Shown: in pieces, positions 42,049-55,187 of the stretch
Layout: each line of letters opens with the position of its first letter
Position numbering within the stretch: position 1 is the stretch's first letter
Source of the DNA: an uncultured virus (IMG/VR IMGVR_UViG_3300028654_000194)
Lineage: Duplodnaviria; Heunggongvirae; Uroviricota; Caudoviricetes
Strand: one strand, 5' to 3'
DNA length: 64,000 nt
Virus record (IMG/VR): IMGVR_UViG_3300028654_000194
The notes under the pieces: model-generated
Seen by the model: the letters and a program-made list of their open reading frames with translations, nothing else
Told to the model about the DNA's origin: nothing
Databases searched by the model: none
Made by a program: the position numbers and the translations under genes

Positions 42049-42321
42049 TCACTCCTTGCTATCTAAAATTGTTTGCAGTTCGTCCATCCACATGTTGATG
42101 GATGGGTAGTCGCTGATCCGGTAGACGTACACCGATGTGGACTTGGCAAAGTCCACATCGTCACCGATGAAGTAGAAGTAGCCACGCCCCTTCACCAGTT
42201 CTGCCTTGATGCCCAGCGCGGCGATCATCGCGTTGACGTTCTTGATCGTCAGGCGGCGAGGGATGCGATGCAGGCTGTGTACTGCATTGATGTTCGCAGT
42301 CGTCAGGTTCAGCTTGGTCAT
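42049..42321 (-). CDS. Hypothetical protein
   Basis: AAGGAG RBS; ELVKGRGYFYF motif. Confidence 0.65.
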   Translation of the reverse strand: MTKLNLTTANINAVHSLHRIPRRLTIKNVNAMIAALGIKAELVKGRGYFYFIGDDVDFAKSTSVYVYRISDYPSINMWMDELQTILDSKE

Positions 42322-42355
42322 TGTCGTCTCCTTGTGCCCAGCCATCGCCGGACGG

Positions 42356-43102
42356 TTAGTCAGTGAGTTCGGTAAGCGACTTGCGCGATGCGTGCATCGT
42401 GTAGCCGGTCTTCTTTTCCAGTTCGACGTACTTGGCGAACAGGTCAGGATTGTACTGCCTGCCCAGCTTCAGGTCGTTCTTCGACGCCATGATGCAGAAC
42501 ACGCACGACAGGCGTTCGCTGCCCAGCGCGTATGCCGGATGCGGCTTCTGACCGGCAGCGGCAATCGTGGCCCACACTTCAGCGATCTGCATCGTGTGGA
42601 TCGGCAGCCAGTCGTACCACTCGCGACCGGCAACGCTGTTCTTCGTGTTCAGGGTCAGCACTTCGCGCTTCGCGCGATCACGACTTTCCTGCGCGCGCAG
42701 ACCCATGCAGTTGACGACCAGCGTCTTGCCGTTCGCCTTCAGCCAGCGACGCACTTCGCGTTCGATGGGGTTGCGCTTCAAGTCTGACGTGCATTGGCGG
42801 TGCGACGTGGACGGCCAAGACGGAACGGACGGGCGGCTTTCGAAGCGGCGTTCGACCATATCCGGCAAACTCTTTTCGGCACGTGCCACGATGAAGTCCA
42901 GACCGGCAGCGCGTGTCTGTTCTTCGGCGTGTTCCAGTGCGCCCTTCCACTCAACATCGCCCAGCGATGCGTGGACGACCACGATCTGCGATGCGGGCAC
43001 GACTTCCAGCAGCTTGATCAGCATCGCTTGGCTGTCCTTGCCGCCGCTGTGGTTGCAGATGAACGTTGCACCGGCAGCAATCAATTCGTTGATGTCACGC
43101 AT
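42356..43102 (-). CDS. PAPS-reductase-family (PP-loop, Fe-S) protein
   Basis: SGGKDS PP-loop, CTSDLK, GLRAQES..R and RLSCVFC motifs. Confidence 0.85.
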   Translation of the reverse strand: MRDINELIAAGATFICNHSGGKDSQAMLIKLLEVVPASQIVVVHASLGDVEWKGALEHAEEQTRAAGLDFIVARAEKSLPDMVERRFESRPSVPSWPSTSHRQCTSDLKRNPIEREVRRWLKANGKTLVVNCMGLRAQESRDRAKREVLTLNTKNSVAGREWYDWLPIHTMQIAEVWATIAAAGQKPHPAYALGSERLSCVFCIMASKNDLKLGRQYNPDLFAKYVELEKKTGYTMHASRKSLTELTD

Positions 43103-43188
43103 GTCAGTCTCCTTGTGCCGCACCACCGTGCAGCGTTGGTTATGATCGCACTGGATGCCAGCCGCGTTGCGGCTGGACACCAGCATGG

Positions 43189-43401
43189 TCAAGTACGCGC
43201 GTGCAGCAGCGCGTTGCGGATGTCTTCGTAGTGCTTGACCGTTGCGGTGTAGAGTTCATCGCACTGCGCCATCTTGTCTTTGGCGTTATGCTTTTCGAAC
43301 GCGACATAGGTGTCATGGATTTCGCGCAACTTGGCGTCGCGTTCGCGCACCAGCGCGTTGTAGATGACGTTCAGTTGCTGCTTGTTGATTTCGATCTGCA
43401 T
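43189..43401 (-). CDS. Hypothetical protein
   Basis: GGAG RBS directly after hammerhead copy 1. Confidence 0.6.
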   Translation of the reverse strand: MQIEINKQQLNVIYNALVRERDAKLREIHDTYVAFEKHNAKDKMAQCDELYTATVKHYEDIRNALLHART

Positions 43402-43430
43402 GTTCGTCTCCGTCTGCACCACCGTGCAGC

Positions 43431-43491
43431 GTTAGCGTTTCGGTTCGTACTGGAACCATCATCAGCACGACTGCTTGTCGTGGACGCTAAC
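43431..43491 (-). ncRNA. Type III hammerhead ribozyme, copy 1
   Basis: GTTAGCGTC^CACGAC-AAGCA-GTCGTG-CTGATGA-T-GGTTC-CAGTAC-GAACC-GAAAC-GCTAAC: complete core, three stems, GUC cleavage triplet. Confidence 0.9.
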
Positions 43492-43972
43492 TTCGACCCG
43501 GTCCCGGCATACGGTTCCCGCGCTACTGACCCTCATCGCGTGCCGTGAACATCAGCGCCTCTGCCAACGTCCGCGTCCCAACTTGGGCGGGTCCGATTTT
43601 CCCGCCACCGTCACTTGACCGGGGGAACCACCGGGGACCACCCGGTACAAGGGAATAATGGCCTAAGCCGGGGGTGAAGTAAATACGAGAAACCAACAAT
43701 CTTCTGGCTGGAAAAGGCGGAAAACCGGGCTTTTTAAGGCCATATAAAAGAAAAGGGGATGGGCCACCGGCCCGCCCCCTATTGTCCGTGTACAGATCAC
43801 CACTCGCGATCTATTTCATTTTGCAGCAGATGCCTCACTGCTTCTGCGATTGCACCATCATCAACGATGGCGTCACGCAGACGTTGCAGTTCTTCGATCC
43901 GCCGCAATCTATCCGCGCATGGCCCACACCAGCTACTGTTCCAGCTTGCACTGTTGTTGCATGTTGCGCACT

Positions 43973-44455
43973 TCATGCTGCTGTCCTAGATTTGCGCCAA
44001 GGAATATCGCGGCGATAACGTTCCTTGATTTCCTTATCCACTTTTTCGTGGCGTTCGTCTTCGCCATATTCAGCTTCGATGATTGCCTTCCACACTGTGT
44101 CTGCGCCGGGCACGTCTTCGATCAATCGTCCCGGTGTGTGGCTGTCACCGAACTGATCGATGAAATCGTCACCGTGCCACTTGTTCGTTTTGGTGGTGAC
44201 GATCTTGACGCGGATCAGCGAACGCCTGTGCTTGCCGCTTACGACAGTGCAGATCACTTCACCCTTCGGTGCGCCATAGCCCTGTTCGATCAAGGCTGTG
44301 AACACCGGGAAGGATTGCAGCTTGTCGATCTTGCGCTTGACGCCATCGACAGATGGTGCGCGCACTGTCTCACTGTTCAGCGTGGCTTCGAACTTCGCTG
44401 TCTTCGCGTTGAACGTGATCGCGACATCGCGGTACGTCTGTTTGAACTCATCCAT
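43973..44455 (-). CDS. Hypothetical protein
   Basis: CAGGAG RBS after a cassette. Confidence 0.65.
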   Translation of the reverse strand: MDEFKQTYRDVAITFNAKTAKFEATLNSETVRAPSVDGVKRKIDKLQSFPVFTALIEQGYGAPKGEVICTVVSGKHRRSLIRVKIVTTKTNKWHGDDFIDQFGDSHTPGRLIEDVPGADTVWKAIIEAEYGEDERHEKVDKEIKERYRRDIPWRKSRTAA

Positions 44456-44560
44456 TGCAGTTCTCCTGTGCTGCGCCATCGCGCAGCGTTGTCGTGCAAT
44501 CTTCTGATCGCACTGGATGCCAGCTTCCCATCAGGAAGCTGGACACCACTGCGTTCCTTT

Positions 44561-45664
44561 CTACGACGCCATGTCCAAGATTTTGCCAGCCTTGCGTTCC
44601 AGTTCGACACGCTTGTCCTGAAACTGGATGCCACGTGCGAAGGCCGTGATGCCGGTGGCGATGTCCCACAGGTTCGACACACCGTCCTTCGTGCCCAGCG
44701 GACGACCTTCGTCCGTCTGGAAGGCCGACACGATGTTCTGTGCTTCGCGCTTGGTGAAACGCTTGGCCAAGAACTCATCGATGTTGTCCACGCGCTTGGC
44801 ACGCGCGTCCGTCACCGCCTTGACCACGCCAGCCGAAGATGAGTTGGCGTAGGCTTGGATCGCAGGTGTGACTTCCTCGATCCACTTGTCAGGCGCAGAC
44901 ACCGTGTGGCGCACGGTGATCTGTTCGAAGTTGCATGCACCCCACACGATGCGGTTCATGCAGGCGTAGTCGAACAGGAACGACGCCATGCCCAGCGTGC
45001 GATCACCGACTTCGCTGTTCCACACGAAGAACCCGCGTGCCAGCGCGCCGGACTGTCCGTCGCGGCGGTTCGGGATTTCGATGCGGTTTTCCTCATCCGC
45101 AAGGAAGATGAACATGTCGCGATCACCGGCATACAGCGTGGTGTTCTGTTCGGTGATCGGCACCTTCTTGCCGAACTCACCGGGGACCGTGAAGTCGCCA
45201 GTGATGCCATCGCCGTAGTGTTCAAGGATCGCCTTGGCCACGTCGCTGTTCCAGATGCGCCCGTAGTTCGGACCCGTCGCGGCAGCCAAGACCGGGCTGC
45301 CGTTCTGGCGAAGCAGCAGACCCACGTCCTGAATGTCGCGGTCGTAGCGCAGGCCGAAGTTCAGGGCGTCGGCTGCAATCGGCGCGGGCAACCCGCGCAG
45401 ATAGCCCGCAGGTGCGTTTACAAGACGCGCCAACTGGCCGAACGCATGGTGCGTGGGGAAGAACCCGTTGCCTACCGGGCCGACCACCTGAAGGCCCTTG
45501 GCGTCGTTTTCAGTCGGCTGGATTTCAATCGACCGTGACGACACGACTGCGCCGCGCGACTGCTTGCGCATCTTCAGCGTGGCTTCATGCAAAGCCGTGA
45601 CTGAAAGGAAGCGTTCATCAGCCGGACGCGAAGCCCACTGATGTGATGCTTGATAAAGCTGCAT
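44561..45664 (-). CDS. DUF932/DUF945-like protein
   Basis: WNSEVG, CMNRIVW and LWDIATGIT motifs. Confidence 0.65.
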   Translation of the reverse strand: MQLYQASHQWASRPADERFLSVTALHEATLKMRKQSRGAVVSSRSIEIQPTENDAKGLQVVGPVGNGFFPTHHAFGQLARLVNAPAGYLRGLPAPIAADALNFGLRYDRDIQDVGLLLRQNGSPVLAAATGPNYGRIWNSDVAKAILEHYGDGITGDFTVPGEFGKKVPITEQNTTLYAGDRDMFIFLADEENRIEIPNRRDGQSGALARGFFVWNSEVGDRTLGMASFLFDYACMNRIVWGACNFEQITVRHTVSAPDKWIEEVTPAIQAYANSSSAGVVKAVTDARAKRVDNIDEFLAKRFTKREAQNIVSAFQTDEGRPLGTKDGVSNLWDIATGITAFARGIQFQDKRVELERKAGKILDMAS

Positions 45665-45765
45665 TGTCATTCTCCTTGTACCCAGCCATCGCTGGGCGGT
45701 TGCGTGCAATCTTGTGATCGCACTGGACGCCTGTCGCTTGCGCGACAGGACACCAGCAGGGTCAC

Positions 45766-46005
45766 TCACCAGTGCTTGAACGCCGGGCACCAGTGTGCGT
45801 GCCCGGATAAGCCACCGTTGCAGTCGCAGCGCGTGATGCGCATGTACTGCGGGTTGAACGTGGGCCATGTGGTGAAGAAACGTTCCATCGCATCGGCGCT
45901 GCTGTCGAAGCGCAGTTCACCGATGAAGGGAAGTTCCAGCGGCACCCAACGTGTCACCGGATAGCCGCCATAGGTGCCGAACTTTTTCCACTGGATGACG
46001 ACCAT
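45766..46005 (-). CDS. Hypothetical protein
   Basis: GGAGG RBS. Confidence 0.55.
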   Translation of the reverse strand: MVVIQWKKFGTYGGYPVTRWVPLELPFIGELRFDSSADAMERFFTTWPTFNPQYMRITRCDCNGGLSGHAHWCPAFKHW

Positions 46006-46006
46006 A

Positions 46007-46228
46007 TCAGCGGCCTCCGCTTACGTAGTGGCTGCACAGGTCGAACAGTTGGTCGCGTTCCAGCGTTGCTACAACGCGGCGCACGCTTTCACCATCTTCG
46101 TACCACCCCTTCGCGTGCTTGAAGCCGGGGTCAGGGATGTGGCGTTCGGCGCAAGCGTGCGCCAGAAACCCCCACCACACCAAGAACTCGGTCGTGGCGC
46201 ATGTCGCGTTCAGTTGTGAATTTGGCAT
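46007..46228 (-). CDS. Hypothetical protein
   Basis: AAGGAG RBS after a cassette. Confidence 0.6.
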   Translation of the reverse strand: MPNSQLNATCATTEFLVWWGFLAHACAERHIPDPGFKHAKGWYEDGESVRRVVATLERDQLFDLCSHYVSGGR

Positions 46229-46325
46229 TGTCAGTCTCCTTGTGCGCCACCACCGTGGCGCGTTGTCGTGCGGTCTTGTGATCGCACTGGATGCCGGTCG
46301 TCTTCACGACCGGACACCAGCAGGG

Positions 46326-46718
46326 TCAAAGGGAATTTTCAGCAACGCCGTGCTGTTCGACGTAGTCCACGAAGTCGCCGGGGTACATCTTCTTCATCAT
46401 CGCTTCGTTCAGGCCACCGATCTTCTTGAAACCGAACTGGGCGACAACGTGGAAACCGCGTGCGTCCTGCACGACATCGCCAACGGACAGCGAAGACATG
46501 CGGTCAACCAGCTTGCGAACCAGACTGCCACCGTTCCACAGGTTCAACATCTCGAAGGCGTGTTCCATGTCGTGGGCGTCCACGATGGCGACAGCGCGAT
46601 ACATGCCCGCCGTCAAAGCAAGCGCCACATCTTCCATCTTGCCGAAGCAGCGGATGTCGCGCGCGGTGTTAGACATAAGATGCACAGGCTTCATCTGCCA
46701 GATTGTGTAGTTCGTCAT
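46326..46718 (-). CDS. YodL-like protein
   Basis: YTIWQ, FEMLN, SLSVGDVV and V..FGF motifs. Confidence 0.65.
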   Translation of the reverse strand: MTNYTIWQMKPVHLMSNTARDIRCFGKMEDVALALTAGMYRAVAIVDAHDMEHAFEMLNLWNGGSLVRKLVDRMSSLSVGDVVQDARGFHVVAQFGFKKIGGLNEAMMKKMYPGDFVDYVEQHGVAENSL

Positions 46719-46814
46719 GTCAGTCTCCTTGTGCGCCACCACCGTGGCGCGTTGTCGTGCGGTCTTGTGATCGCACTGGATGCCAGCCGCTTGCGCGGCT
46801 GGACACCAGCATGG

Positions 46815-47153
46815 TCAGGCTGTGACCGTGAACTTCTTGTTGCGACGTGCGCGCTTCTCTGCGGCAGCGAAGTATTTTTCCATCGCGGCATGCGCGGCTT
46901 CGACTGTCTTGTGTTCGGTGCGGTTGAACGCGGGGCCGTACTTCTTGCCAGCGCGCAGCGCCCGCACCCACAACCAGATTGCATCGTCCGCGTTGTCGCG
47001 GTTCCAGTAGGCATGCTGTGCGTTTGTTTCTTCATGGTATTGCGTGCGAACGATCATCGCATGCGCGCCAACCGCGCGACCGAAGTTGTCCTTCACCGCG
47101 AAGGTGCGATCTTCAGTGTGCAGCGTTTCGGATTTCGTTTCGTTGACCTTCAT
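46815..47153 (-). CDS. Hypothetical protein, first gene of the leftward early operon
   Basis: GGAG RBS directly after hammerhead copy 2. Confidence 0.6.
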   Translation of the reverse strand: MKVNETKSETLHTEDRTFAVKDNFGRAVGAHAMIVRTQYHEETNAQHAYWNRDNADDAIWLWVRALRAGKKYGPAFNRTEHKTVEAAHAAMEKYFAAAEKRARRNKKFTVTA

Positions 47154-47183
47154 TGTCTTCTCCATACTGCACCACCGTGCAGC

Positions 47184-47245
47184 GTTCAGCGTTTCGATCA
47201 ATACTGTGATCATCATCAGCACGACTGTTTGTCGTGGACGCTAAC
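47184..47245 (-). ncRNA. Type III hammerhead ribozyme, copy 2
   Basis: GTTAGCGTC^CACGAC-AAACA-GTCGTG-CTGATGA-T-GATCA-CAGTAT-TGATC-GAAAC-GCTGAAC; stem II covaries with copy 1. Confidence 0.9.
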
Positions 47246-47404
47246 TTCGACCCCATGCAGGCTTCCTGCTCTGGCGCTACTGACCCTCATCGCGTGCTAC
47301 GAACATCCGCCTTCACATCTGGCTAACGTCCGCATCCCGACTTGGGCGGGTCCGATTTTCCCGCCACCGTCACTTGACCGGGGGAACCACCGGGGACCAC
47401 CCGG

Positions 47405-47772: not shown

Positions 47773-47916
47773 ACATGTTCGCTGCTGCGCGCGATGCGGT
47801 GATTGCAGCAGCACGCGTTGTCGATCAGGTTTTTCCTGTCGCGCAGTATCACTGCATCGATGATCTGAGTGCAGCACTGCGCGAATACGATGCTGCGAAG
47901 AAAGCGAAGAAGTGGA

Positions 47917-48297
47917 ATGACTGAGTGCGACATCCCCGATGTCGATCCGCCCGGTCGTATCTACTGCGATCACACGCTGGTCATCTACGCCGTGGTCGAT
48001 CCGCAGGATACATTCTTCACGAAGTGGAAGTGGCACATCAACGTTCCGCACAACAAGCGCAACGGAAAGAAAAAGTATTTCAGGCGTTCGCGCAGTCGTG
48101 GGGGCGTTTACAAGTCGCCGCTATATCTTCACGTGGAGATTATGAAGCGCACCGGCATCGAACCGCCGACCAAGAAGCACAAGCTGGTCGATCACATCGA
48201 CGGCAACGAATGGAACTGCCGCCGCAGCAATCTGCGCTGGGCGACGCATAGAGAGAACCGGCACAACATCAACCACGGAGGCGCTTACCTTGTTTGA
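47917..48297 (+). CDS. HNH endonuclease
   Basis: YLH..I and VDHIDGN..NCRRSNLRWAT..EN motifs. Confidence 0.85.
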   Translation: MTECDIPDVDPPGRIYCDHTLVIYAVVDPQDTFFTKWKWHINVPHNKRNGKKKYFRRSRSRGGVYKSPLYLHVEIMKRTGIEPPTKKHKLVDHIDGNEWNCRRSNLRWATHRENRHNINHGGAYLV

Positions 48298-48520
48298 CAT
48301 ATCGAAGCTTGGACAGCCGACCGGAACCAGCGGGTTTCGTTTCGGCATGACGCAGGATGGTGCCGTCGCCATGCTTGAAGAATTTTTGGCACAGGTGAAG
48401 GGCGGCAAGATCGCACTTCAGGGTGTCGAACAATCGACAACGGCGACGCCCGATGATTTCATGTTGCGCAGCCTGACATTAAAATATGCGGAAAAAGATG
48501 ACACGCAAACGACTGCCTAA
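48290..48520 (+). CDS. Hypothetical protein
   Basis: GGAGG RBS and TTG start. Confidence 0.55.
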   Translation: MFDISKLGQPTGTSGFRFGMTQDGAVAMLEEFLAQVKGGKIALQGVEQSTTATPDDFMLRSLTLKYAEKDDTQTTA

Positions 48521-48815
48521 CCGCCGCGACAACGACACGGTCGTGTTCGAACATGACGGCATCCGCTACCACGCGACCGCCAGCTTCATCGACGGTCAAC
48601 TGGCGGAAGTGTTCTTGGATGGCCCGAAGGCCGGATCGCTGGCCAGCATGGTCGCGCGCGAAAGCGCCGTGCTGCTATCGCTGGCGCTTCAGCACGGCAC
48701 GCCGGTCAGCGTGCTGCGCGAAGCGTTGCCGAAGCTGCCGAATGGTGCGCCTGCCGGGCCGATGGGGGCAGCACTATTTGCCATAGACCACATCATTGCC
48801 AATGTCCGCGCCTAG
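48498..48815 (+). CDS. Stand-alone class II ribonucleotide reductase C-terminal-like (TSCPD-type) domain
   Basis: RLPNRR, AEVFLD..KAGS and SLALQHG motifs. Confidence 0.65.
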   Translation: MTRKRLPNRRDNDTVVFEHDGIRYHATASFIDGQLAEVFLDGPKAGSLASMVARESAVLLSLALQHGTPVSVLREALPKLPNGAPAGPMGAALFAIDHIIANVRA

Positions 48816-51662
48816 CGGCAGACCGGCTGCCCAGTCAGGGCCGGTGGTCATTACGGACTGAAGCACCTGACGCGCGTCTGCGACTTCATCATCCGGCACT
48901 TCCATGATCGCTTCGTCATGCGTGTGCCCGATCAGGCAGTCGTTCCAGTCCAGATCGCACAGGCGGCGCAGCGTCCAGCGCAGCAGCGATGCTGCTTCGC
49001 CCTGCGTGCAGTTCGATACGATGAACGGCATACCATCCTGTCCGCGCACAACGAACCTGTGACGCGGGCCTGCGTTCAGAAGATCGTAGACCGGCGATAA
49101 CCGTTGCCCAGATCGACCGGAAGGAATAGATCGGCCACTGGCCACTGACGCGCCAGACGATACGCCAGCGTGGTCGCGCCAATCCCTGTTAGTTCTGACG
49201 CCTCGCACAGAAGCATCCTGCCTTTGGGCGTATCGATCACGCGGCTGTTGCGACGGTTGCGCGATTGCTGTGACCACGTGCGCCATGCGCAGTTCTTCGG
49301 GGTATATCCTTTGTTGTTGTTCAATCGATCCAAGGTAAGGCCGGGCGCGTAAGTCGGCCCCATGTCGTCCCAGAAATTTTGGAACTTGCGCCAGCGCTTG
49401 CACACTACGATGCCGCGCCTGCCATAATTGCCCCACGCCTGATGCGATGGCAGACGGCACCGATCCAGCATAGACCGCCATACGGCAAAAACCGGGTGCG
49501 CTGACATTCCATGTGTCGTCAAACGCTGCGCCGCCCTTTCGCGGCGTAGACACCCGCAACTGTGGACGCGTCCTTTCGTAATCTCCACGCCTATACGTTT
49601 GATCGTCTTGCCGCAGTCGCATCGCGCCCACCACAGCATTTTTTGACCGTTGCTGCCTGCGCTGCGCAAGATCGTCAGCCGTCCAAACTTCTGCCCGCGC
49701 AAATCCCTGCGTCGCCAGTCCATGGTGTGTGTCCTTTGCAGCTTTCCAAACCCCGGACACTAGCACCTTGTGGTCTTCCGTCAATAATACCCCGCCGAAG
49801 GACATGACAGGCTGCACACCTTGATACGTCAGACCATCGTGGCGAACAAATTCAACGCCATCGTGGACACGATCCGCGATACTGACATCCACAATATGCT
49901 TCCAGCCACTGTCTGTCAGAACTTCCGTGTTCGGGCCAAGACAGTTCTCCGCTTGGATGCCGCCGTACAGCTTCATGCGCGGCCAGTAGTTCGATCCATG
50001 CTTCGGGTGCCACGCACCCTTGATCGCGGTGATCGCCTGCTGCGGCCCGAAGCGGCTGCTGACCGTTTCGATCTTGGCGAACGGGTACGCCAGCATGCGA
50101 CCGCTGGGCAGCATGCACCACAAGACGCTGCTGGCGAACATGTACCGGACGCGCCCGGCAGTGAAGACGCATTCGGGGTTGCGCACGGCGCTGAACGCAG
50201 CGTCTTCCAGCGCGCGCCAGAAGCGCGGTGCCCATGGGTTGGCGTTGCGCCAGCGGCGCTTGTACTCATCCGCCGTGCTGTCGCTGACGTGCAGGTCGTA
50301 GTTGTGCGCCATGACTTGGAACGCGCCGACGCCGCCACCGAAGCCGAACGCCAGCACGGCCACCTTGCCGCCCTGCCGCAAGTTCTTGTCCACGTCTTCG
50401 GGCGCGACGCCGAACATGCCTGCCGCCTGCTGCACATAGATGTCTTCGCCGCGCGCGAAGGTGTCCAGCACGGCGCTGGCGCTGTTCTCCTTGGACAACC
50501 ATGGCAGCACGCGGGCTTCGATGGCCTTCCAGTCGCCCCACACGAACTGCTTGCCTTCCTCTGCCACGATGGAAGGACGCAGCGTGCGCGACAGCGTGGT
50601 CAGCACGTTGTAGCCGGACAGCTTGATCAGTTCGGACTTGGGCGTGCGCCGCAGGATCGCTTCGACCACGTCTTCGATGTTGTCCAGCTTGGCGCGGACG
50701 AAGTTGTGAAGCTGGGCACCAGTGGATGAGAAGCGTCCGGTCTGCCCGGCACCGCTGAAGACGTAGGCACCGCGCACACGGCCATCCGGCCCGGCGCGCA
50801 TCTCCATGGCGCGGAACTTGGCGGTGCTGGCGCGGCCACCGTCATCGATCAGGCCGACCACTTCGCGCTGGATGACGTTCAGATCGTCGCGTTCCAGAAG
50901 TTCGGCGCGCGCGTCGGCGTCGAACTTGATCTTGCCGTGCGCGTTCTCCTGCAACACCGGGCCGAACCAGTCCTTGATGCGCTGGAACTGCTTGGGGCTG
51001 GTGATGCTGCCGCACGTCAGTTCGTCCAGCCGGACGCAGATGTCGGTCAGTTCATCACGTGCGTAGTGCTGCGCGGCACGGATCAGGTCTAAGTCAACCG
51101 GCAGACCCTTGTCGTTGATCATCTCCGTGATGACCCAGTCGCGCTGTTCGTCCGGCGACAGTTCGCGAACCGTGCGTCCTAGTCCCATCTCCGTGTGAAC
51201 ATCGACGTCACAGTAAGCGCACAGTGCATGAAACTCCTGCGGATCGTCTGCCCAGCCGCCGTTCTTCAGCGGCTTGCACCACTTCAACATCACGCTGTTG
51301 TCCGACTTCTGCACCGGCATGCGCAACGCCTTGGCGCACATCTCCAACTTGCCGGGCAGCGCCATCGACCGGGCGCGCGCCATGGTGCAGCGGAAGCGTT
51401 CGGCTGGGATGTCCATCTTCAACACGAACTTCAGGATCAGCCGTTCGAAGGCTGCGTTCCACGCGTGGATCGTTTCGCTGGCCAAGGCTGCCTTCAGATC
51501 GTCCGGCATGGCTTCGCCTTCCCACGCGCGCCACTGCTTCACCGTCAGGCCATCAAGGCTGTACGATGCGCACAGCACGCTGGTAGACGGATGCTGCGCA
51601 TAGATGTAGCTGCCGACCAGCTTCAGATCGACGGTGCTTCGGGTTTCGAAATCAAGGTTCAA
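48774..51662 (-). CDS. Family A DNA polymerase with intein
   Basis: Exonuclease LDFET, AWNAAFER, YCDVD; polymerase TGRFS, DWKAIEARV, RQGGKV..LAFGFG, HTHDE motifs. Confidence 0.92.
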   Translation of the reverse strand: MNLDFETRSTVDLKLVGSYIYAQHPSTSVLCASYSLDGLTVKQWRAWEGEAMPDDLKAALASETIHAWNAAFERLILKFVLKMDIPAERFRCTMARARSMALPGKLEMCAKALRMPVQKSDNSVMLKWCKPLKNGGWADDPQEFHALCAYCDVDVHTEMGLGRTVRELSPDEQRDWVITEMINDKGLPVDLDLIRAAQHYARDELTDICVRLDELTCGSITSPKQFQRIKDWFGPVLQENAHGKIKFDADARAELLERDDLNVIQREVVGLIDDGGRASTAKFRAMEMRAGPDGRVRGAYVFSGAGQTGRFSSTGAQLHNFVRAKLDNIEDVVEAILRRTPKSELIKLSGYNVLTTLSRTLRPSIVAEEGKQFVWGDWKAIEARVLPWLSKENSASAVLDTFARGEDIYVQQAAGMFGVAPEDVDKNLRQGGKVAVLAFGFGGGVGAFQVMAHNYDLHVSDSTADEYKRRWRNANPWAPRFWRALEDAAFSAVRNPECVFTAGRVRYMFASSVLWCMLPSGRMLAYPFAKIETVSSRFGPQQAITAIKGAWHPKHGSNYWPRMKLYGGIQAENCLGPNTEVLTDSGWKHIVDVSIADRVHDGVEFVRHDGLTYQGVQPVMSFGGVLLTEDHKVLVSGVWKAAKDTHHGLATQGFARAEVWTADDLAQRRQQRSKNAVVGAMRLRQDDQTYRRGDYERTRPQLRVSTPRKGGAAFDDTWNVSAPGFCRMAVYAGSVPSAIASGVGQLWQARHRSVQALAQVPKFLGRHGADLRARPYLGSIEQQQRIYPEELRMAHVVTAIAQPSQQPRDRYAQRQDASVRGVRTNRDWRDHAGVSSGASVASGRSIPSGRSGQRLSPVYDLLNAGPRHRFVVRGQDGMPFIVSNCTQGEAASLLRWTLRRLCDLDWNDCLIGHTHDEAIMEVPDDEVADARQVLQSVMTTGPDWAAGLPLGADIGNDVVYGK
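49011..49943 (-). mobile_element. Intein (311 aa) in the DNA polymerase
   Basis: Begins CLGPNTEV after YGGIQAEN; block B LTEDH; block F VYDL; ends IVSN followed by Cys (CTQG). Confidence 0.9.
49076..49723 (-). CDS. HNH-type homing endonuclease encoded out of frame inside the intein
   Basis: GQKFGRLT, CDCG, SCGC, WRSMLDRC, YGRRGI.VC.RW, LDRLNNNKGY.P.NC.W motifs; own AAAGGA RBS 8 nt upstream of ATG. Confidence 0.9.
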   Translation of the reverse strand: MDWRRRDLRGQKFGRLTILRSAGSNGQKMLWWARCDCGKTIKRIGVEITKGRVHSCGCLRRERAAQRLTTHGMSAHPVFAVWRSMLDRCRLPSHQAWGNYGRRGIVVCKRWRKFQNFWDDMGPTYAPGLTLDRLNNNKGYTPKNCAWRTWSQQSRNRRNSRVIDTPKGRMLLCEASELTGIGATTLAYRLARQWPVADLFLPVDLGNGYRRSTIF

Positions 51663-51948
51663 TGGTAGTGACCTTCGGCGGCAGTTCTTCCGACTTTATG
51701 ATCAGCAGCACACCTTCCGGCGACATCCAATCAACGCAGCGAATGAAAGCAATGAACTCATCTTCCAGCAAGTAGTTCACCGTGGTCGCGAAGCAGCGCA
51801 TCGATGGGCACTTGTAGCCGCCGAAGCCATCTGTCACATCGTTGAACATCGTCCCCGGATACTTGGAATGCAGCCAGTCGTTGACCGGGGCGATGGTGTC
51901 TTCATCGATGATTTCCGTGATCAGGACGATGCCATACGCGCGGGTCAT
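51652..51948 (-). CDS. Hypothetical protein
   Basis: ORF overlapping the polymerase start; start uncertain. Confidence 0.55.
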   Translation of the reverse strand: MTRAYGIVLITEIIDEDTIAPVNDWLHSKYPGTMFNDVTDGFGGYKCPSMRCFATTVNYLLEDEFIAFIRCVDWMSPEGVLLIIKSEELPPKVTTIEP

Positions 51949-52823: not shown

Positions 52824-53918
52824 CTAGGCTCCTAGTTGTTTGAGTGCTTGTCCTATGGCGGCTGCCGGTAGGACTTCGGGTCGTTTGTCGTCTTGTGTTG
52901 CGATGGTCGTGCCTGAAGACACAGGCGAAGCAAGACCGTCTATTTTCAGTTTCTTTTTTTCTGCTTGTGCTGGTGTGATGAGTTGTTTCTTGATGTACGT
53001 GTCTTCGCTGATACCTTGATCGGCAAACGTTTTGGCTGTCAAGGCTTCGTCATTCCACTGGCGCACGGCCCGCTTGTTCACCAGCTTCCACCCCGGAACA
53101 GCAACGCCGTGTTCCAGTTCGTGGTGGATGCGGTCTTCCGCTTCTTCACGCCAGTCATCCCATGATCTTATCTTCGCAAGGCGGTCGCCCAGTTCGGCCA
53201 GATCAAGGATGTGGTTCGGCGCGGTGAGAGTTGCCAGCCGCTGTGTCTTCAGCGGGCAGACAAGCTTCGCATCGCACCACTTGCACCATTTGCCTTCCGC
53301 GAAGGTCGGCATCGGTGATCGCGCTGCTTTCAATGCCGCGTACAGGGACATCTCGAAAGCAGTCAAGTCTTCCGCCGTGACCGTGTGACTGTCGATGGCG
53401 GGGTCCATCGTCGGCTGGATGATCACCAGTTCGATAGTCTTGGGTTTCAGTCCCAGCGTCTTGCGCGCAGCGGCAGCGTAGAACATCGCCTGTGCGTTCG
53501 CTTCCGCCTCCACCACGATCTGGCCGAACTTGAAGTCGGCCACGACCAGATGGTCGTTGTGATGGAACAGGATGTCGGACGTGCCCCACGCTTCGGGTTC
53601 CAGTTCGACCCGCTGTTCCGCCCAGATGCCGCCGGGGTGCTTCGCCGCCAGCATGTCGAACGCTTCCAGTGCGACCTTGATCGCGCCGATTTCGTCTTCC
53701 CCCAGCCGGATGCCTTCGACAGTCGCGCCAAGGAACGCATCAGGATGCTTGTCGGCATCGTTGATCAGCAGTTCCATCACGGTATGCTGCGCGGTGCCGA
53801 CTTGCGCAGCCATACCAGCCGGGCGCTTCGGCACCTGTTCCAGCAGGCTGGTGCTGCCTGCACAATTCATCCAGCGCGCGGCACTGCTGCCGCCGAATTT
53901 CGCATGGTTCATTTTCAT
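52824..53918 (-). CDS. Cas4-like PD-(D/E)XK exonuclease (DUF2800-like)
   Basis: SSAARWMNC, GT..H, GTSD, DFKFG, Q...YA and WCKWC.....C motifs. Confidence 0.85.
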   Translation of the reverse strand: MKMNHAKFGGSSAARWMNCAGSTSLLEQVPKRPAGMAAQVGTAQHTVMELLINDADKHPDAFLGATVEGIRLGEDEIGAIKVALEAFDMLAAKHPGGIWAEQRVELEPEAWGTSDILFHHNDHLVVADFKFGQIVVEAEANAQAMFYAAAARKTLGLKPKTIELVIIQPTMDPAIDSHTVTAEDLTAFEMSLYAALKAARSPMPTFAEGKWCKWCDAKLVCPLKTQRLATLTAPNHILDLAELGDRLAKIRSWDDWREEAEDRIHHELEHGVAVPGWKLVNKRAVRQWNDEALTAKTFADQGISEDTYIKKQLITPAQAEKKKLKIDGLASPVSSGTTIATQDDKRPEVLPAAAIGQALKQLGA

Positions 53919-54466: not shown

Positions 54467-54663
54467 CAGGTAAGCTTCACGCAGGACAGCGTCAGCGGCA
54501 TGAACATCTTACGCAACAGGAAATCGTTGCGCTGAAGTCTGAAATTCGTTCTGACTACTTCGGCGCGATACGCAAGACCCTCGTGATGGATCGTCTGTGC
54601 GCGAAGTACCGCATCAGCAGCCGCGTGTTTCAGAAGTACGTCAGCTATGTGAGGCAAGGATGA
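54463..54663 (+). CDS. Small HTH-like hypothetical protein
   Basis: LTQQEI...LCAKYRIS pattern; ATGA coupling. Confidence 0.5.
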   Translation: MTGKLHAGQRQRHEHLTQQEIVALKSEIRSDYFGAIRKTLVMDRLCAKYRISSRVFQKYVSYVRQG

Positions 54664-55187
54664 CGCCGATAGAACAAGTGGCCCGCGCGATCTGCGCAGC
54701 ATTCAGCGACAAGAACGATTATGATCCTGATGAACTGGTCTATCGCGACAGTCTGAACAAAGACTACACGCTTGTGCCGCGCTGGCGCTTCTGGATGAAG
54801 GAAGCAGAAGCTGCTTTGTCTGCGATGCCGTCGCTGACACCGTTGAACGCGCTGGCAGCGCAGTGCCATGCAGCGAACGCCACATGGTGGCGCGATCCTG
54901 CGACCGGCGAACGTCTTCAGCGCAACAAGGGCGAACTGCTAATGCTGATCGTCAGCGAAGTGGTCGAAGCCATGGAGGGCGAACGCAAGAACCTGATGGA
55001 CGATCACCTGCCGCATCGCAAGATGGCGGAAGTGGAACTGGCTGACGTTCTCATTCGCCTGTTCGATTACGCTGGCGCGTTCGGATACGATCTGGATGGC
55101 GCACTGGCAGAGAAGCGCGCGTACAATGCGCAGCGTGCAGATCACAAGCCTGAAGCACGGCTGGCCGCTGACGGCAAGAAGTGGTGA
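54660..55187 (+). CDS. MazG-like nucleotide pyrophosphohydrolase
   Basis: SEVVEAMEG, EVELADVLIR and EKRAYNAQR motifs. Confidence 0.8.
   Translation: MTPIEQVARAICAAFSDKNDYDPDELVYRDSLNKDYTLVPRWRFWMKEAEAALSAMPSLTPLNALAAQCHAANATWWRDPATGERLQRNKGELLMLIVSEVVEAMEGERKNLMDDHLPHRKMAEVELADVLIRLFDYAGAFGYDLDGALAEKRAYNAQRADHKPEARLAADGKKW

What the first reader, a model, noticed from the sequence alone, without database searches (positions are those of the whole stretch)
49011..49943. Intein whose homing endonuclease is overprinted in a different reading frame
SEEN: the polymerase frame holds a 311-aa intein with proper splice blocks (CLGPNTEV...LTEDH...VYDL...IVSN/C), but its central ~200 residues look like alternative-frame sequence. 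The same DNA in the +1 frame (49723-49076) encodes an intact 215-aa HNH-type endonuclease with its own AAAGGA-N8-ATG start. Both frames are stop-free for over 200 codons. KNOWN: intein homing endonucleases are normally in frame within the spliced-out polypeptide. INFERENCE: a free-standing endonuclease gene entered a mini-intein out of frame, and stops were purged so the polymerase still reads through. This uncouples endonuclease expression from splicing. The penultimate intein residue is Ser rather than the usual His.
Basis: partly seen in the sequence, partly recalled or inferred. Interest (0 to 1): 0.88.

Follow-up and report, generated by a model that had tools for sequence, protein, structure and literature searches.

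The report
Phage intein hiding an off-frame nuclease
A self-removing protein insert in a phage DNA polymerase gene carries its DNA-cutting enzyme as a second gene in a shifted reading frame; this layout has been described before as rare, but here it is the rule across a large phage family that includes laboratory-grown phages where it can be tested.

Summary
Confirmed. The family-A polymerase of this phage holds a 311-aa intein whose middle ~215 residues are the shadow of a 215-aa nuclease gene in the +1 frame, with its own ribosome-binding site and ATG. It is no assembly error: contigs of other runs show no indels, and 138 of 141 divergent relatives, including cultured APSE, SFCi1 and Caulobacter phages, have both frames open; none has the nuclease in frame. 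Selection acts on the +1 frame (dN/dS 0.14 versus 1.7), about 8 host-frame stops per gene are avoided, and start codon plus SD are kept in two alternative arrangements. The nuclease lacks the catalytic His (D/E-R..Y..N, PacI-like). Most likely a homing intein whose endonuclease is translated separately. The layout is already published (cyanobacterial dnaX; actinophage EndoVII inteins), with the same origin model, so it is not categorically new. New here: nuclease class, host gene, scale, sister +2 inteins in Jerseyvirus/Dhillonvirus, and split, mini and free-standing forms at the same site. Splicing, expression and cleavage are inferred, not shown.

The parts
48774..51662 (-). Family-A DNA polymerase gene (962-aa precursor; 651 aa after splicing) of a tailed phage
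   Evidence: phage context (terminase, portal, tape measure, helicase)
49011..49943 (-). Class 1 intein, 311 aa: C1, block B T55-x-x-H58, block F D287, block G S310-N311, Cys+1 at 49010-49008; inserted in YGGIQAEN|CTQG about 33 residues before motif C (HTHDE)
   Evidence: (C1, T55, H58, D287, N311 invariant in 91 sequences)
49076..49723 (-). Nested +1-frame gene, 215 aa: N-terminal SH3-like/Cys-containing domain, His-less HNH (beta-beta-alpha-metal) core D132-R133...Y140...N156, C-terminal HTH-like part; its stop lies inside the codons of intein block F (68 nt before the intein end)
49721..49737 (-). Ribosome-binding site AAAGGA, 8-nt spacer and ATG of the nested gene, written in intein codons A69-K70-D71-T72-H73-H74
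   Evidence: (duplex energy -5.3 kcal/mol)
49079..49723 (-). Host-frame shadow of the nuclease gene (intein residues about 74-289): stop-free, predicted disordered loop in the Hint domain

Best explanation
A homing intein with two genes in one stretch of DNA. Ribosomes that start at the polymerase read through 311 intein codons; the two ends fold into a Hint domain around a ~215-residue disordered loop and splice out by the class 1 route (C1, T/H, D, N, Cys+1), giving active polymerase (inferred). Ribosomes that start at an internal SD+ATG on the same mRNA make a free-standing, PacI-like His-less HNH nuclease (Tyr as base/nucleophile, inferred) that nicks or cuts intein-less polA alleles at or near the YGGKLxENxxQ motif during mixed infection; repair copies the intein, its Cys+1 codon and flanking markers (inferred). 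The +1 overlap is cheap: a host-frame stop needs a T at a nuclease third position before an AA-, AG- or GA-starting codon, and every NNT codon has an NNC synonym, so the nuclease sequence is unconstrained (follows from the code). Shown: anatomy, conservation, selection signatures. Inferred: splicing, translation, cleavage, homing.
For: 138 of 141 distinct (<90% nt) relatives have both frames open, 140 of 141 have the nuclease in +1, none in frame; present in cultured phages. dN/dS 0.14 in the nuclease frame vs 1.7 in the host frame, 50 computable of 98 pairs. 8.4 host-frame stops expected per gene; third frame has 11 on average, 8 of 8 free-standing relatives have 6-21. All 138 have ATG/GTG/TTG upstream; best SD median -7.3 kcal/mol vs -3.4 (out-of-frame starts in extein) and -1.8 (synonymous resampling of the intein codons); two alternative start/SD layouts, GAGG upstream of position -14 in 26 of 41 that lack a near start vs 8 of 97 that have one. 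R133 137/138, Y140 and N156 138/138, D/E132 135/138; best structural match PacI, Z 6.5. APSE: 9 filled and 4 empty alleles; intein diversity 0.34% vs 1-4% in flanks, 13 markers fixed between -154 and +3, Ile replaced by Cys+1. Splicing-domain identity barely tracks extein identity (rho 0.12, 116 loci).
Against: No RNA, protein, splicing or cleavage data. PacI match is modest (Z 6.5, under the tool's caution level of 8) and Foldseek found nothing at E<=0.001. Pairs and SD counts are not phylogenetically independent. Low intein diversity in APSE may also reflect double coding, and the fixed tract may reflect one insertion with local recombination suppression. No empty allele of this phage's own polA was found. 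The window itself is not in the dN/dS pairs (nearest relative 64%).
Confidence: 0.82

Rival explanations
1. Assembly or sequencing artefact: two compensating indels hide an ordinary in-frame HNH intein.
For: None found; one short contig (L341) shows an in-frame fusion, but with an N at the shift and a broken intein end.
Against: No indels in contigs of 4 runs; same phase in 140 of 141 divergent relatives and in finished phage genomes.
Confidence: 0.01
2. The nuclease is reached by programmed +1 ribosomal frameshifting from the polymerase frame, making an extein-intein-nuclease fusion, rather than by its own start.
For: The +1 frame is open only from about 160-200 nt into the intein in most members, so a shift window exists; 35 of 138 have GTG or TTG as their best class of start.
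Against: Start plus SD kept in 95% vs 39% by synonymous resampling; two compensating start layouts; split relatives use the same start region; no common slippery motif seen in the 138 contexts (by eye).
Confidence: 0.05
3. The nested gene is expressed but is not a homing nuclease for polA: a non-cutting DNA-binding protein or a competition/exclusion nuclease that rides in the intein.
For: The canonical His base is replaced by Arg; the family also occurs free-standing in hundreds of phage records (989 matches); mini-inteins without it persist.
Against: Invariant Tyr and Asn as in PacI, an active enzyme with Tyr in place of His; tight link to one polA motif, even when free-standing beside an intein-less polA whose motif reads FTAE-LVQA (L022); filled/empty alleles with a conversion-like tract.
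Confidence: 0.1
4. The insert is removed at RNA level (group I intron), as the GenBank note for the sister element in Sodalis phage SO-1 says, and the open host frame is incidental.
For: GQ502199 annotates gp39 as 'type I self-splicing intron'.
Against: Complete intein catalytic set, Hint fold, length a multiple of 3, stop avoidance, no Rfam match at E<=0.5.
Confidence: 0.02

Closest known systems
Cyanobacterial dnaX intein with out-of-frame LAGLIDADG endonuclease (Phillips, DeSimone, Gogarten, bioRxiv 10.64898/2026.09.14.751524; citing Gorbalenya 1998)
   Same: Contiguous intein, disordered in-frame middle, same-strand shifted ORF with SD, purifying selection on the shifted frame, mini and empty alleles, secondary-invasion model
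   Different: LAGLIDADG in a '+2 ORF' in a chromosomal clamp-loader gene; here a His-less HNH in +1 in phage PolA, several insertion sites, split and free forms
Non-canonical actinobacteriophage inteins: endonuclease VII-like HEN in frame 3, antisense LAGLIDADG/Vsr HENs (Gosselin, Arsenault, Gogarten, bioRxiv 10.1101/2025.01.02.630785)
   Same: HEN in a frame other than the intein's; proposed origin by invasion of a free-standing HEN; predicted decay to mini or split inteins
   Different: Their HNH inteins are in frame; their DNA polymerase host is Pol III alpha; they call the layout extremely rare, here it is 46 of 46 contiguous full-length inteins in an intein-driven sample
APSE-1 P45 intein with nested P46; Jerseyvirus and Dhillonvirus 'intein-containing DNA polymerase'
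   Same: Same intein family and, for APSE, same nuclease clade (50% identity, +1 frame); P46 is annotated inside P45, truncated to 140 aa; RefSeq names it HNH endonuclease; SO-1 gp39 nested in gp38
   Different: The intein is annotated and its loss noted, but no paper found links the nested ORF to the intein; most records omit it; Jersey/SO-1 carry a sister nuclease clade in +2 at another site
ShiLan domain (Arsenault et al., PMC11855218)
   Same: Out-of-frame HNH under a stop-free host frame; the Pacc40 example was modelled on PacI
   Different: No splicing domain and no SD; here a full intein and a conserved SD
Fractured genes: split inteins flanking a free-standing HEN (Dassa et al. 2009, PMC2677866)
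   Same: L044, L053, L072 have N-intein, nuclease gene, then a C-intein whose ATG overlaps the nuclease stop
   Different: Same site, intein family and nuclease clade also exist as contiguous overprinted, mini and free forms; HNH rather than GIY-YIG or Vsr
PacI restriction endonuclease and I-HmuI homing endonuclease
   Same: Core residues 70-160 match PacI (Z 6.5, rmsd 2.6, 77 aligned); weak sequence match to the I-HmuI HNH motif (E 0.015)
   Different: 14% identity to PacI; Arg in place of I-HmuI H75; own N-terminal domain and C-terminal HTH

Membership tests
Class 1 intein | In-frame insertion in a conserved host motif, absent from homologous alleles | tested here: met
   933 nt, in frame; precise empty alleles in APSE (918 nt absent)
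Class 1 intein | Cys/Ser1, block B T-x-x-H, block F Asp, terminal Asn, Cys/Ser/Thr+1 | tested here: met
   C1, T55, H58, D287, N311 invariant in 91; Cys+1 in 141 of 141
Class 1 intein | Penultimate His (usual, not obligatory) | tested here: not met
   Ser310; 131 His, 10 Ser among 141. That spliced inteins such as Npu DnaE end in Ser-Asn is recalled, from no call
Class 1 intein | Hint fold | tested here: met
   All listed Foldseek rows are Hint-domain proteins, best E 1.6e-3, probability 1.0; ends pLDDT 93-98. Pfam and NCBIfam intein models do not hit it
Class 1 intein | Protein splicing activity | not testable with these tools
   needs an assay
Canonical full intein (in-frame endonuclease domain) | Endonuclease in the intein's own polypeptide | tested here: not met
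   0 of 141 and 0 of 46 in frame
Non-canonical intein with out-of-frame HEN | Intact endonuclease ORF in another frame between the splicing blocks, host frame open and disordered | tested here: met
Non-canonical intein with out-of-frame HEN | Purifying selection on the shifted frame and own initiation signals | tested here: met
   (family level; the window has no pair at >=70%)
Non-canonical intein with out-of-frame HEN | Patchy distribution and incongruence with the host gene | tested here: inconclusive
   filled/empty APSE alleles and weak extein correlation; no formal topology test
HNH homing endonuclease, I-HmuI type | Catalytic His general base (D-H...N...N/H) | tested here: not met
   Arg at the H75 position in 137 of 138
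PacI-like His-Me finger (Tyr replaces His) | Metal ligands Asp and Asn, invariant Tyr in the loop, no His | tested here: met
   D/E132, Y140, N156; PacI description; residue-level superposition on PacI not seen
PacI-like His-Me finger (Tyr replaces His) | Structural match to PacI | tested here: inconclusive
   top row of 48,161 chains, Z 6.5, below the caution level of 8; no Foldseek match
Homing endonuclease | Cleaves the empty cognate allele and drives gene conversion | not testable with these tools
   needs an assay
Group I intron | Rfam group I core; RNA-level excision | tested here: not met
   no Rfam match at E<=0.5 in 48500-51800

The most novel reading that the evidence does not exclude
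This is a whole intein lineage whose ground state is the separately translated nuclease: three clades of PacI-like HNH genes overprinted it in +1 or +2, none was seen in frame, and because the nuclease keeps its own start and stop, the element switches repeatedly between contiguous, split (stop plus ATGA-coupled C-intein), mini and free-standing states at one site and slides by 1-4 codons within the target motif. That would be a living, reversible route between contiguous and natural split inteins, and a new source of split inteins.
Probability: 0.45. Interest if true: 0.72.

Novelty: new variant of a known kind. Interest (0 to 1): 0.55.

Why it matters
Out-of-frame intein endonucleases are described as rare, and the papers read here support them by computation only. 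This family shows the layout is common in phage replication genes and hidden from annotation: such inteins pass as having a decayed endonuclease. It offers tractable tests, since Caulobacter phages carry the +1 form and E. coli Dhillonviruses carry the +2 form next to 90-95% identical empty alleles. It bears on how inteins gained endonucleases and how split inteins arise, and it would give a homing role to the large uncharacterised His-less (PacI-like) HNH family.

Tried and rejected
Own genome not held; nearest record G001 had no match. No RNA holder listed; no evidence either way on expression. No joint marking an empty allele in contigs of 4 runs, and no close polA relative by single-sequence scan. 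Pfam and NCBIfam miss both the intein and the nuclease. Foldseek gave no significant match for the nuclease. SD-sequestering hairpin: folds in the window in one frame of view (z -2.3) but not in another (z -0.7) and is not a family trait (5 of 138 below z -2): rejected. Internal sigma-70 promoter: one site at 49919-49891; family excess 28 vs 15.4+-3.5 but at scattered positions: not established. In-frame nuclease in L341: has an N at the shift, set aside. Direction of change between split and contiguous forms: the two trees disagree and support is weak. Paper searches for this family's nested nuclease found none; the library lacks most subscription papers, so van der Wilk 1999, Degnan and Moran 2008, Gorbalenya 1998 and InBase notes were not seen, and bioRxiv supplements are closed.
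Full report
Observation. The window is a tailed phage genome (terminase, portal, tape measure, helicases), held in rhizosphere metagenome runs. Its family-A DNA polymerase gene (51662-48774, 962 aa) carries a 311-aa insert, AEN|CLGP...IVSN|CTQG. The +1 frame holds a 215-aa ORF (49723-49076) behind AAAGGA-N8-ATG, matching phrog_374 HNH endonuclease at 8e-60. AlphaFold folds the two ends of the insert at pLDDT 93-98 with a low-confidence middle; Foldseek lists only Hint-domain proteins, best E 1.6e-3. The +1 product folds at pLDDT 92. Contigs of 4 runs show no indel; X1, which may be the source, spans the stretch, and X4 covers the intein in three overlapping gap-free pieces.

Family. Scans returned 8 of 8, 80 of 94, 80 of 251, 80 of 123 and 10 of 10 loci, plus 4 annotated phage regions. 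From these 257 loci and the window, 163 distinct inteins with a close nuclease were called, 141 clusters at 90% nucleotide identity; 3 inteins without a callable end and loci cut at the intein start were left out. The nuclease is in +1 in 140 of 141, in frame in none; the host frame is open in 138; Cys+1 in all; His-Asn in 131, Ser-Asn in 10. Finished phage genomes have the same layout: APSE-1 to -7, Shewanella SFCi1, Caulobacter GB2A/RW/RLK/KcrB were the 17 best rows of 989 matching records (frames checked for APSE-1, APSE-2, SFCi1, GB2A). In APSE-1 the nested ORF is the annotated P46, cut to 140 aa, inside P45. An artefact is excluded.

Selection. In the 138 open members, 8.4 host-frame stops are expected per nuclease gene from codon usage at other junctions (window 7.7, P(0)=1.4e-4); the zero observed is by selection of the 138, the unconditional figure is 138 of 141. 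The third frame has 11 stops on average, and 8 of 8 free-standing relatives have 6-21 in the equivalent frame. Of 98 pairs at 70% or more identity, 50 gave finite values: median dN/dS 0.14 in the nuclease frame and 1.7 in the host frame, divergence highest at nuclease third positions; pairs are not independent and none includes the window. The +1 phase is cheap because each host-frame stop needs a third-position T in the nuclease, and every NNT codon has an NNC synonym (follows from the genetic code).

Own translation start. All 138 have ATG, GTG or TTG upstream of the first conserved motif. The best SD pairing has median -7.3 kcal/mol, against -3.4 for 1393 out-of-frame control windows and -1.8 after synonymous resampling that keeps the intein protein (95% vs 39% at -3.5 or better; the anti-SD sequence is recalled). 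Two layouts alternate: a start 5-12 codons before the anchor, typically behind the intein's E/K-G-W codons (92 only this), or an ATG 13-17 codons before it (35 only this; 5 both, 6 neither), with GAGG from the H-E-V codons in 26 of 41 lacking the near start against 8 of 97 having it (not corrected for kinship). A hairpin over the SD and an internal promoter were tested and not established.

Nuclease. The motif aligns with I-HmuI, but Arg133 stands where I-HmuI has H75. R133 is kept in 137 of 138, Y140 and N156 in all, position 132 is D or E in 135. The best of 48,161 chains is PacI (Z 6.5, rmsd 2.6, 77 residues; modest); Foldseek found nothing significant. PacI is an active HNH enzyme with Tyr in place of the His base and Asp/Asn as metal ligands (passages of PMC5714182, PMC3384342, PMC4081073). 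Activity is inferred.

Mobility. Of 17 APSE records, 11 have the intein (two of them RefSeq copies), 4 lack exactly 918 nt, 2 are partial. Among 9 filled and 4 empty alleles the intein differs by 0.34% on average, flanks by 1-4%; 13 markers from -154 to +3 separate filled from empty, and the empty site reads GGKI|IENI against GGK(S/L)|CENI (one search had dropped 3 filled alleles through a motif slip). This fits homing with co-conversion, but double coding and one old insertion could also give it. Over 116 loci, splicing-domain identity correlates weakly with extein identity (rho 0.12; nuclease-extein 0.36), and 6 of 55 pairs with nucleases at 70% or more have exteins under 45%. Insertion points differ by 1-4 codons: EN|C 79, GGKx|CEN 46, GGK|CxEN 8, ENx|C 4, other 1, mixed across the tree.

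Other states. The three members with a closed host frame (L044, L053, L072) are split inteins at the same site: the N-half stops just after the nuclease start and the C-half begins at an ATG overlapping the nuclease stop; all end Ser-Asn like the window. L022 is a free-standing member right behind an intein-less polA with an altered motif. Mini-inteins and internally deleted remnants occur at the same site. In the nuclease tree the split and free forms fall at three places inside the contiguous clade; in the 99-column splicing tree the window, L013, L220 and the three split forms group at 87. Direction is unresolved. An intein-driven scan, blind to the nuclease (80 of at least 446 loci, overlapping earlier sets), gave 46 contiguous full-length inteins, 37 with a long +1 ORF and 9 with +2, none with an in-frame motif, plus 33 short and 4 split or shifted ones. 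The +2 clade includes Sodalis SO-1 and a Jerseyvirus; 194 phage records match the mini-intein, 145 of them Salmonella phages (frames checked in 5). The family also sits in SNF2 and Helicase_C helicases.

What is known. Phillips et al. (bioRxiv 10.64898/2026.09.14.751524; first quarter and passages) show a LAGLIDADG in a +2 ORF of the dnaX intein with SD motifs and frame-dependent dN/dS, and credit Gorbalenya 1998 (not seen). Arsenault et al. (PMC11855218; abstract, introduction, passages) describe out-of-frame HNH inserts without an intein. Dassa et al. (PMC2677866; passages, section 16) describe the split layout. Rouil et al. (PMC7313666; passages) note differential loss of the APSE intein and do not mention P46. 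Also seen in passages, adding little: PMC549080, PMC3185647, PMC8425127, PMC7765530. Eight searches found no paper on the nested nuclease of this family; subscription papers and preprint supplements were out of reach. That InBase lists the APSE and SETP polymerase inteins is recalled.

Verdict. [quoted passage not shown] It is a new variant by nuclease class, phase, host gene and scale, and by the coexistence of contiguous, split, mini and free forms. Splicing, expression, cleavage and homing remain untested. Interest 0.55.

Noticed in passing
L044:2742-3704, L053:2757-3701, L072:2735-3716: Natural split inteins at the same polA site with the same nuclease clade between the halves; the C-half starts MKVYD at an ATG overlapping the nuclease stop; candidate new split inteins.
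   Followed up: partly
L066:136-1154, L087/L089/L090:946-1967, L150:1352-2361, L043:740-1937: Split inteins at an upstream polA site (GRxSG|SD region) with a free HNH of another clade, or in L043 an unrelated 298-aa ORF without a Pfam match that looks GIY-YIG-like by eye; L167 has a mini-intein at the same site.
   Followed up: partly
L346:1801-2697 (Sodalis phage SO-1), L347:1801-2697 (Jerseyvirus EnJE6), L349, L350: Annotated 'intein-containing DNA polymerase' genes hide a ~250-aa HNH in the +2 frame; SO-1's record calls it a type I intron; many Dhillonviruses at 90-95% identity lack the intein.
   Followed up: partly
L022:3001-3636 (also L173): Free-standing member of the window's nuclease clade directly after an intein-less polA whose target motif reads GGKFTAELVQA, possibly a self-immune site.
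   Followed up: partly
L306, L321, L330 (2501 on), L290, L332, L340, L294: The same intein family in SNF2 and Helicase_C helicase genes, with +1 or +2 nucleases or as a mini-intein.
   Followed up: partly
L016, L030, L046, L077, L083, L114, L220, L232, L247, L254: polA genes with two inteins of this family, each with its own out-of-frame nuclease, often one in +1 and one in +2.
   Followed up: partly
L258-L268, L009, L010: In APSE the residue after the insertion point is Ile in empty alleles and Cys in filled ones, so the splicing nucleophile travels with the intein.
   Followed up: yes
L289:1583-2167, L337:2501-3061, L159:2903-3409: Inteins whose nested nuclease has an internal deletion that keeps both frames open: intermediates toward mini-inteins.
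   Followed up: no
window 47869-48297 (+): A second, conventional free-standing HNH gene (Pfam HNH_3) about 500 nt beyond the end of the polymerase, on the opposite strand.
   Followed up: no
window 42356-43192 (-), 52824-53918 (-), 54597-55187 (+): PAPS-reductase-like gene (phrog_424), DUF2800/PD-(D/E)XK nuclease, and MazG-like pyrophosphatase (phrog_5658) near the replication module.
   Followed up: no
window about 42300-47300 (-): A repeated sequence containing CTGGATGCCAGCAGGAAC-like text recurs before several early genes (seen as similar translated stretches such as LLVRHHRGALSCGLVIALDA in ORF lists); possibly repeated promoters.
   Followed up: no
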